Source: Escherichia coli | Lineage (GTDB): Bacteria > Pseudomonadota > Gammaproteobacteria > Enterobacterales > Enterobacteriaceae | NCBI RefSeq assembly: GCF_003334785.1 | Contig: NZ_QOWV01000020.1 | Direction: 5' to 3' (one strand) | DNA length: 61,363 bases | The notes under the pieces: generated by a model | Seen by the model: the letters and a program-made list of their open reading frames with translations, nothing else | Databases searched by the model: none | What the model was told of the DNA's origin: nothing | Program-made: the position numbers and the translations under genes | Shown: positions 1,031 through 1,996 of the stretch, piece after piece | Layout of the letters: each line of letters starts with the position of its first letter | Numbering within the stretch: the first letter of the stretch is position 1

Positions 1031-1996
1031 TTATACCTCCATTTTCTTCATTGTTTTCGAGGTTCTGTATTCCGGAATAGTGGTAACAATTGCACCGACC
1101 AGTGCAAACAGTGTTCCGATGATCGTGACCAGATAAACGCTATTGCCCAGCGATGGAATTAATACGTCAATCAATACTGATCCCAGTAACTGGCCCGCCG
1201 TTGAAGCAACCTCCAGCATCAGTAACCCCAGACCTCTGACCAAAATGGCCATTAAACCGATAGACATTAGTCCAAGCGGGCCGCCAAGATACATCCACCA
1301 GACATCTGGTAATTGAACAGTGACGTGCCCTAATGCGACACGAATAGCTAGCGCTGTGCCTAAAACACAAAATCCAACGATGAAATTCTAGGTGATTGAA
1401 ACCAGCATGGATCCCGTAGCTTCAGCTACTTTTGCATTTCCAGCGGGCTGCCATCCTGCAAGCAAACCAGCTAAGAACGGAAGAATGGCAAGTAAGATGA
1501 AAGAGGTAGAATGCCACTGAGGTGACACAACAAAAATCGTAGCAATAACCGCAAATAATGCACCGATGATGCGATAAGGGGTAAAGTATTTTTTCTCGTC
1601 GACACCGATACCAAAGCGATCGCAAAGTAAACCAGACAGCAATAGCGCGGAGATCAGTGCGGTTTGAAACGTTGCGACCCCGAGTGCGCTGGCTGATGCG
1701 CCTTCAGAAAATACCACCATCGCTCCACAGAGACCGGCAAACCAGTTCCAGAGAGGAACTTTTCGGTTTTTAATCAGAGAAGGAATTGCCGCAAATTGTT
1801 GCCGGGTTTCTTTTCGCGCCATAATAATAAAAAACATCACGACTAAACCACTGGCAAAGGAGATAACTGCGCATGCATTACCATCCTGTAACCAGTGACC
1901 TAATTGACCATTCACCGCTGATTGCATAGGGGAGAGCATACCCGCAAGAATCGTGGCAAGCATCCATAAGGGAGTTGAGTACTTATTCTTTTTCAT
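1031..1996 (-). pseudogene. DMT-superfamily (YdcZ/DUF606-like) inner-membrane transporter interrupted by an in-frame amber codon
   Basis: ORFs 1388..1996 (202 aa) and 1031..1294 (87 aa) are in the same frame (1390-1294 = 96 nt), separated only by TAG at 1390..1388. Read-through translation is continuous and hydrophobic: ...ATGSMLVSIT*NFIVGFCVLGTALAIRVALG...MYLGGPLGLMSIG... Confidence 0.6.

What the first reader, a model, noticed from the sequence alone, without database searches (positions are those of the whole stretch)
1388..1390. Single in-frame amber codon splits a DMT transporter gene
The 202-aa and 87-aa ORFs are in the same frame and separated only by one TAG. Reading through gives a continuous hydrophobic protein of about 321 residues. 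This is either a very recent nonsense mutation or a gene that would be expressed in an amber-suppressor background.
Basis: seen in the sequence. Interest (0 to 1): 0.5.

Follow-up and report, generated by a model that had tools for sequence, protein, structure and literature searches.

The report
Common amber pseudogene of E. coli transporter
A membrane-transporter gene in an accessory island of E. coli is cut short by one Trp-to-stop mutation that about 30% of island-carrying sequenced strains share and that RefSeq already labels a pseudogene, so it is an ordinary dead gene.

Summary
On the minus strand, window 1996..1031 is a 321-codon gene whose only internal stop is TAG at codon 203 (window 1390..1388).

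The gene encodes a two-domain DMT_YdcZ (PF04657/DUF606) transporter. It lies in an E. coli accessory four-gene cluster next to cobUST.

Intact E. coli alleles have TGG at this codon. Trp203 is invariant in 24 homologues down to 63% identity. The change is G->A at gene nt 608, which is window 1389.

The mutation is not recent or private:
- Allele-specific searches find TAG in 611 and TGG in 1430 of 5426 complete E. coli genomes.
- TAG is always linked to a synonymous SNP 131 nt away.
- It sits on at least four flanking haplotypes, which fits one origin followed by recombination.
- RefSeq annotates it as "DMT family transporter, pseudogene, internal stop".

TAG copies carry further damage. In this window that is G262E at a site where all 23 homologues from other genera have Gly. 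The neighbouring genes are also broken here: a PfkB kinase frameshift and an IS66-family insertion in the phosphotriesterase-related gene.

Nothing supports suppressor rescue. serU in the window is wild type. supE-type tRNA alleles occur almost only in K-12 laboratory strains, and MG1655, the one K-12 genome checked, lacks the cluster at this locus.

Verdict: ordinary, already annotated pseudogene; low interest.

The parts
1031..1996 (-). Whole DMT_YdcZ (DUF606) two-domain transporter gene: 321 codons plus stop, here a pseudogene.
   Evidence: Translation. Pfam PF04657 matches residues 10-154 and 169-303. 100% identical to the VE-F10 locus QQK65_RS08820, annotated 'DMT family transporter, pseudogene, internal stop'.
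1388..1390 (-). In-frame amber codon TAG at codon 203. The ancestral codon is TGG (Trp). The mutated base is window 1389, which is gene nt 608, G->A on the coding strand.
   Evidence: Comparison with intact E. coli alleles. W203 is invariant in 24 homologues. Allele counts are 611 TAG against 1430 TGG genomes.
1388..1996 (-). Truncated 202-codon reading frame. It holds the complete first YdcZ domain (TM1-5) plus TM6 of the second domain.
   Evidence: The identical-length 202-aa product forms a protein cluster of 685 member sequences (P0112).
1031..1387 (-). The 118 codons after the stop (TM7-TM10), expected not to be translated. The first in-frame start codon is the ATG at 1294, which opens the 87-aa ORF.
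1211..1213 (-). Second lesion downstream of the stop: codon 262 GGG->GAG (G262E), window 1212. All 23 homologues from other genera have Gly at this site.
   Evidence: The allele is present in only 8 of 5426 genomes, all nested in the TAG lineage.
397..1028 (-). First 210 codons of the downstream phosphotriesterase-related (PF02126) gene, cut off by a mobile element. The start codon lies 2 nt after the DMT stop.
   Evidence: The intact gene is 1035 nt in VE-F10 and other strains. Identity to VE-F10 starts at window 397.
1..396 (.). End of an IS66-family insertion sequence (tnpA side) inserted into the phosphotriesterase-related gene.
   Evidence: 99% identical to IS66-like copies in thousands of records. 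No complete genome carries this junction.
2053..2811 (-). Upstream GATase1_like (PF07090) gene, 252 aa, intact here.
2825..4038 (-). First gene of the cluster, an HTH_DeoR-PfkB kinase fusion. It is frameshifted by a 1-nt deletion at gene nt 381, about window 3658.
   Evidence: Alignment to the intact O104:H4 allele. Annotated 'frameshifted' in VE-F10. Domain matches.

Best explanation
This is an ordinary nonsense pseudogene.

Shown: a single G->A transition changed the invariant Trp203 codon (TGG) of a 10-helix, two-domain DMT_YdcZ transporter to TAG. The gene is the third of a four-gene accessory cluster: HTH_DeoR-PfkB kinase, GATase1_like, DMT_YdcZ transporter, phosphotriesterase-related enzyme. 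The cluster sits in an island remnant full of insertion-sequence fragments between tmaR/yeeA and cobU.

Inferred: translation stops after 202 residues and releases a fragment that lacks TM7-TM10 of the DMT fold, so transport is lost. The loss of translation over the last 357 nt may also lower expression of the downstream, tightly abutted phosphotriesterase-related gene.

Shown: the mutation probably arose once and is old. It has been carried into several haplotype backgrounds by recombination and is now in about 30% of allele-typed island-carrying complete genomes. The cluster is decaying as a whole in E. coli. In this window three of its four genes are inactivated.
For: The stop and the frame were checked directly.

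Ancestral codon and conservation:
- Intact alleles in ST131, Nissle and others have TGG.
- W203 lies in the invariant motif TGSM(L)VSITWNF in 24 homologues from Citrobacter, Salmonella, Klebsiella, Proteus, Anaerobiospirillum, Bifidobacterium and Lactobacillaceae.

Fold:
- There are two PF04657 domains, and the stop falls 35 residues into the second.
- The AlphaFold model (pLDDT 70.7) matches full-length 10-TM DMT transporters with query-normalised TM-scores of 0.56-0.66 for the significant hits.

Annotation and frequency:
- RefSeq PGAP flags the gene 'internal stop' in all 11 TAG-carrying loci whose annotation was fetched.
- Allele counts are 611 TAG and 1430 TGG genomes.
- Protein cluster sizes agree: 685 members for the truncated product and 1648 for the largest intact cluster, P0001.

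Origin:
- 608A is always found with the synonymous 477T.
- All four gametes occur with sites 34, 114, 191, 333 and 934.

Relaxed constraint. Extra damaging changes are private to TAG copies:
- G262E in the window and VE-F10.
- A43T plus a 1-nt deletion in NCTC122.
- P81S in MDK6L1.
- A 1-nt deletion in FY10.

Neighbouring genes:
- In the window, an IS66-family element interrupts the phosphotriesterase-related gene and the PfkB gene is frameshifted.
- PfkB or the GATase gene is inactivated in most of the other loci sampled.
Against: - No expression data exist, so loss of function is inferred from sequence.
- The 18 loci compared are a spread sample, not a random or phylogenetically controlled one.
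- Some single-base frameshifts in long-read assemblies could be assembly errors.
- The 30% frequency reflects which strains get sequenced, not natural populations.
- A frequency that high for a null allele could also reflect selection for loss rather than neutral decay. These data do not separate the two.
Confidence: 0.9

Rival explanations
1. Adaptive loss. The null allele, or the decay of the whole cluster, has been favoured by selection, for example because the transporter imports something harmful or is costly. This would explain its rise to about 30% and its spread by recombination.
For: - The allele frequency is high and it sits on several haplotype backgrounds.
- The neighbouring PfkB kinase/regulator gene has been inactivated independently many times: frameshifts, internal stops, and IS or ISVsa5 truncations.
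Against: - Only one inactivating DMT mutation is common. Selection for loss would be expected to produce several independent null alleles at appreciable frequency.
- Frequencies in genome databases are dominated by a few sequenced clones.
- The island is a mobile-element remnant, where neutral decay is the default expectation.
Confidence: 0.08
2. The gene is functional in its host because an amber-suppressor tRNA reads the TAG.
For: TAG is the stop codon that the classical E. coli suppressors read. The frame downstream stays open for 118 codons.
Against: - serU, the supD locus, lies in the window and has its normal CGA anticodon.
- The supE-type CTA anticodon of glnV/glnX occurs in 158 of 5426 genomes. 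The listed ones are almost all K-12 laboratory strains or their transconjugants. MG1655, the one K-12 genome checked, has no copy of the cluster at this locus.
- Known suppressors would not restore the invariant Trp (for the invariance; suppressor specificities are general knowledge).
- TAG copies carry further damaging changes downstream and upstream.
- The rest of the operon is broken in this window.
Confidence: 0.02
3. A natural split into two genes, or a working half-transporter. The DUF606 family includes single-domain homodimers and two-gene heterodimers. The 202-aa product alone, or together with an 87-aa product re-initiated at the ATG at 1294, might still assemble into a transporter.
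For: - DUF606 exists in homodimeric, heterodimeric and fused forms (Lolkema et al. 2008, as summarised in PMC3962082).
- The 202-aa fragment contains a complete first domain.
Against: - The break is not at the domain border (about residues 155-168). It lies 35 residues into domain 2, inside TM7.
- A product starting at Met235 would lack residues 204-234, which include invariant positions.
- All full-length close homologues are single chains.
- The N-domain has a strong fixed Lys/Arg bias, about 13 on one side and 0 on the other. It cannot supply the antiparallel partner the fold needs (inference from the positive-inside rule).
Confidence: 0.02
4. Sequencing or assembly error in this window.
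For: It is a single-base difference.
Against: The identical TAG, with 28 or more exact flanking bases, is found in 611 independent complete genomes. It is a substitution, not a homopolymer indel.
Confidence: 0.005

Closest known systems
RefSeq/PGAP pseudogene 'DMT family transporter, internal stop' (for example QQK65_RS08820 in E. coli VE-F10 and IUJ37_RS01320 in O104:H4 RM8376)
   Same: It is the same locus and the same TAG. The VE-F10 copy is 100% identical over the gene and over window 397-8100.
   Different: Nothing differs in the gene itself. This window additionally has an IS66-family insertion in the next gene that none of the 5426 complete genomes shares.
Intact E. coli alleles WP_000739817.1 (ST131, Nissle) and WP_000739825.1
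   Same: Same gene, same position in the four-gene cluster, and 98.9-99.6% nucleotide identity.
   Different: They have TGG (Trp) at codon 203 and Gly at codon 262, and they give an uninterrupted 321-aa product.
DUF606 / DMT_YdcZ family (PF04657; E. coli YdcZ is a single-domain member) as analysed by Lolkema et al. 2008
   Same: There are two PF04657 domains, as in the fused two-domain members. The predicted fold is the 10-TM DMT fold.
   Different: The family's naturally split forms break between the domains. Here the break is inside the second domain and is caused by a point mutation.
Laboratory amber alleles that depend on supE, such as rpoS(Am) in K-12 lineages (general knowledge, not tested here)
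   Same: A single in-frame TAG in an otherwise intact reading frame of E. coli.
   Different: In those cases a suppressor co-occurs in laboratory strains. Here the carriers are natural isolates. The supE-type allele is essentially confined to K-12 derivatives, and the K-12 genome checked (MG1655) has no copy of the cluster at this locus.

Membership tests
DMT superfamily, DMT_YdcZ/DUF606 (PF04657), fused two-domain type | Two tandem PF04657 domains in one polypeptide | tested here: met
   The read-through sequence matches at residues 10-154 (E 3.7e-30) and 169-303 (E 7.7e-16). Precomputed PF04657 hits are present on all homologues.
DMT superfamily, DMT_YdcZ/DUF606 (PF04657), fused two-domain type | 10 transmembrane helices in the DMT fold | tested here: met
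   The AlphaFold2 model has pLDDT 70.7 and pTM 0.67. The significant Foldseek PDB hits are all 10-TM DMT transporters: CMP-sialic acid transporter, LicB, TPT, SLC35B1, PfCRT, Vrg4 and YddG, with query-normalised TM-scores of 0.56-0.66. Model confidence is only moderate.
DMT superfamily, DMT_YdcZ/DUF606 (PF04657), fused two-domain type | Uninterrupted reading frame that encodes both domains | tested here: not met
   TAG at codon 203. The locus is therefore a pseudogene of this family, not a functional member.
Nonsense pseudogene | The in-frame stop sits where intact alleles and orthologues have a conserved sense codon | tested here: met
   TGG in the intact E. coli alleles. Trp is invariant in 24 homologues.
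Nonsense pseudogene | Signs of relaxed constraint after the stop, such as further damaging changes | tested here: met
   G262E, A43T, P81S and two 1-nt deletions occur only in TAG copies. The two private changes in TGG copies are one synonymous and one G247S at a variable site. The sample is small (19 sequences).
Nonsense pseudogene | No full-length protein is made | not testable with these tools
   This needs a western blot or proteomics in a carrier strain.
Suppressor-dependent amber allele | An amber-suppressor tRNA (CTA anticodon) in the same genome | tested here: inconclusive
   Only 61 kb of the genome is available. Its five tRNA genes (4 Asn, and serU with CGA) are wild type. At population level the supE-type allele is in 158 of 5426 genomes, nearly all K-12 laboratory strains.
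Split heterodimeric DUF606 gene pair | The break lies at the domain boundary, and the second gene has its own start and encodes a whole domain | tested here: not met
   The break is 35 residues inside domain 2. The first in-frame start is 31 codons further on. The full-length close homologues are single genes.

The most novel reading that the evidence does not exclude
The TAG allele is not neutral decay. It could be a selected loss-of-function (or 'de-fusion') variant. One version is that inactivating this transporter is advantageous in some E. coli niches. Another is that the 202-aa N-terminal DUF606 domain keeps an activity of its own. Either would explain why one null allele reached about 30% of carriers and recombined into several backgrounds.
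Probability: 0.06. Interest if true: 0.35.

Novelty: already known. Interest (0 to 1): 0.08.

Why it matters
It matters little. The locus is a correctly recognisable pseudogene in a decaying accessory island of E. coli, and public RefSeq annotation already flags it.

The modest added value is descriptive:
- The ancestral codon is Trp (TGG).
- The null allele is old and common, in about 30% of allele-typed island-carrying complete genomes.
- It probably arose once and has moved between backgrounds by recombination.

For annotation, the two ORFs (202 aa and 87 aa) should not be called as separate genes. The function of the conserved cluster (HTH_DeoR-PfkB kinase, GATase1_like, DMT_YdcZ transporter, phosphotriesterase-related enzyme) remains unknown. 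That is the only biologically open question nearby.

Tried and rejected
- NCBIfam gave no family for the transporter or the GATase-like protein.
- A profile search of PDB sequences found nothing meaningful (best E 0.57). The fold assignment therefore rests on the predicted model.
- The promoter and terminator scan of window 300-4400 gave counts within the range of shuffled sequence. It showed no internal promoter or start signal that would support independent expression of the downstream part.
- Literature searches for YdcZ/DUF606, and for amber suppressors in natural isolates, found nothing on this locus. Only the DUF606 evolution summary was useful.
- The suppressor idea was examined and rejected.
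- The split-gene or half-transporter idea was examined and rejected.
- Sequencing error was rejected.

I did not determine phylogroups or a core-genome tree for the carriers. 'Several backgrounds' therefore rests on flanking SNP haplotypes only.

Full report
**1. The observation**

The feature is on the minus strand. Window 1996..1031 translates into a 321-position frame with one internal stop at codon 203 and the natural stop at the end. The internal stop is TAG, which reads CTA at window 1388-1390 on the plus strand.

The ORF list gives 1388..1996 (-) at 202 aa and 1031..1294 (-) at 87 aa, in the same frame. The 87-aa ORF starts only at the first ATG.

**2. What the gene is**

With Trp restored, the read-through sequence has two Pfam DMT_YdcZ (PF04657, formerly DUF606) domains, at residues 10-154 and 169-303.

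A protein search found 303 homologues. The close full-length ones are single chains of 314-342 aa from Citrobacter, Salmonella, Klebsiella, Proteus, Pectobacterium, Anaerobiospirillum, Bifidobacterium and Lactobacillaceae.

An AlphaFold2 model built from 24 of them has moderate confidence (pLDDT 70.7, pTM 0.67). Its significant matches among solved structures are all 10-helix DMT-superfamily transporters: CMP-sialic acid transporter, LicB, triose-phosphate translocator, SLC35B1, PfCRT, Vrg4 and YddG. Query-normalised TM-scores are 0.56-0.66 over about 300 or more columns.

Hydropathy and the model place codon 203 in the seventh helix, 35 residues into the second domain.

**3. Where it is**

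The window is Escherichia coli.
- Window 397-8100 is 100% identical to strain VE-F10.
- Window 7881-57782 is 99.97% identical to VE-F10. This stretch includes cobUST, four tRNA-Asn genes, serU and the yersiniabactin island.

The gene is third in a four-gene cluster read on the minus strand:
1. HTH_DeoR-PfkB kinase.
2. GATase1_like.
3. DMT_YdcZ transporter.
4. Phosphotriesterase-related enzyme.

The cluster lies among IS fragments between tmaR/yeeA and cobU. It is accessory: 2125 of 5426 complete E. coli genomes have it. K-12 MG1655 has the CP4-44 prophage at that place instead.

The same four-gene order is conserved in Klebsiella. There the transporter is one uninterrupted gene whose stop overlaps the start of the phosphotriesterase-related gene. 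The GATase1_like plus DMT_YdcZ pair recurs even in Lentilactobacillus.

**4. The mutation**

Intact E. coli alleles have TGG at codon 203, for example WP_000739817.1 in ST131 and Nissle, and WP_000739825.1. The window has TAG. The difference is G->A at gene nt 608, which is window 1389.

Trp203 is invariant in 24 homologues down to 63% identity. It lies within the invariant motif TGSM(L)VSITWNF.

**5. How common and how old**

I used two 55-nt queries that differ only at the central base. Every 28-nt megablast seed must then contain the allele.
- The TAG query hits 611 genomes.
- The TGG query hits 1430 genomes, out of 5426 in both cases.

The sum, 2041, fits the 2000-2125 carriers found. Protein-cluster sizes tell the same story: 685 members for the 202-aa product and 1648 for the largest intact cluster, P0001.

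RefSeq annotates the TAG copies as 'DMT family transporter', pseudogene, 'internal stop'.

I compared 19 sequences, the window plus 18 loci.
- 608A is always accompanied by the synonymous 477T, and 608G by 477G. Only two gametes occur for this pair.
- All four gametes occur with sites 34, 114, 191 and 333 on one side and 934 on the other.

The simplest reading is one origin followed by recombination into at least four flanking haplotypes. The allele is therefore not 'very recent'. The 30% figure describes sequenced genomes, not natural frequencies.

**6. Evidence that it is really dead**

Private changes in TAG copies are all damaging:
- G262E in the window and VE-F10. All 23 homologues from other genera have Gly here, and the allele is in only 8 of 5426 genomes.
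- A43T, at an invariant Ala, plus a 1-nt deletion in NCTC122.
- P81S, at a nearly invariant Pro, in MDK6L1.
- A 1-nt deletion in FY10.

The two private changes seen in TGG copies are one synonymous change and one at a variable Gly/Ala position. The sample is small, and single-base indels in long-read assemblies can be artefacts.

The rest of the cluster is also decaying.
- In the window, the PfkB gene has a 1-nt deletion at gene nt 381.
- In the window, the phosphotriesterase-related gene is cut after 210 codons by an IS66-family element. The junction at window 396/397 is not found in any complete genome.
- In the other loci sampled, PfkB is frameshifted, stopped or IS-truncated in most, whichever DMT allele they carry.
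- The GATase gene is frameshifted in half of the TAG loci.

**7. Suppression**

The window's five tRNA genes are wild type. They include serU, the supD locus, with anticodon CGA.

An allele-specific query for the supE-type CTA anticodon of glnV/glnX hits 158 of 5426 genomes. About 100 of them were listed. Nearly all are K-12 laboratory strains or their transconjugants, such as C600, DH5alpha, DH1, J53, JM109, XL1-Blue and HB101. MG1655, the one K-12 genome checked, has no copy of the cluster at this locus. Two genomes of non-K-12 size (ETEC1738 and PJ-T13) were not followed up.

From general knowledge, the classical amber suppressors insert Gln, Tyr, Ser or Leu rather than Trp, and unsuppressed read-through is very low. 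The whole genome of the source strain is not available, so a suppressor elsewhere cannot be formally excluded. Nothing points to one.

**8. Split-gene or half-transporter idea**

DUF606 proteins exist as homodimers, two-gene heterodimers and fusions (Lolkema et al. 2008, as summarised in PMC3962082). Here three points argue against a working split:
- The break is inside domain 2, not at the domain border.
- The first in-frame start codon is 31 codons downstream, so any re-initiated product would lack invariant residues.
- The N-domain has a one-sided Lys/Arg distribution, about 13 against 0, which implies a fixed orientation. It cannot supply its own antiparallel partner (this is inference).

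**9. Verdict**

This is a real single-base nonsense mutation, Trp203 to amber, in a DMT_YdcZ transporter gene of a decaying accessory cluster. It is old, common in E. coli and already annotated as a pseudogene.

The 'nonsense mutation' reading is right apart from 'very recent'. The suppressor reading is unsupported. Novelty: already known. Interest: low.

Noticed in passing
window 1-396 (junction 396/397): This is the end of an IS66-family element inserted into the phosphotriesterase-related gene. The window begins inside the element. None of 5426 complete E. coli genomes has this junction, so it looks like a strain-specific recent insertion.
   Followed up: partly
window 2825-4038 (-), about 3658: The HTH_DeoR-PfkB kinase gene at the head of the cluster has a 1-nt deletion at gene nt 381. 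Across E. coli this gene is inactivated in many different ways: frameshifts, internal stops, and IS3, ISVsa5 or IS1 events. That suggests repeated independent loss.
   Followed up: partly
window 2053-2811 and 1031-1996; L022-L024: The four-gene cluster (HTH_DeoR-PfkB kinase, GATase1_like PF07090, DMT_YdcZ transporter, phosphotriesterase-related enzyme) is conserved in Klebsiella. The GATase1_like plus DMT_YdcZ pair also occurs in Lentilactobacillus, next to CBAH and amidase genes. The substrate and function of this conserved module are unknown.
   Followed up: partly
window about 23200-53376: The yersiniabactin high-pathogenicity island (fyuA to ybtS) lies beside tRNA-Asn at 53301-53376. An integrase ORF sits at 52224-53150, and the corresponding gene is annotated as frameshifted in the near-identical strain VE-F10.
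   Followed up: no
window 16026 (amn, 15342-16952 -): The only indel between the window and VE-F10 over 50 kb is an extra T here. VE-F10's amn is annotated as frameshifted, whereas the window has a long open frame. So amn is intact here, or the VE-F10 frameshift is an assembly error.
   Followed up: partly
window 4230-5950: Fragments of IS66-family and IS4-family transposase genes and a cobalamin-biosynthesis gene remnant lie between the cluster and cobU, as annotated in VE-F10. They show that the cluster sits in an IS-scarred island remnant.
   Followed up: no
outside the window: NZ_CP122768.1 (ETEC1738) and NZ_CP087110.1 (PJ-T13): Two genomes whose sizes (5.58 and 4.94 Mb) do not look like K-12 carry the supE-type CTA anticodon in a tRNA-Gln gene. 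They may be natural amber-suppressor strains.
   Followed up: no
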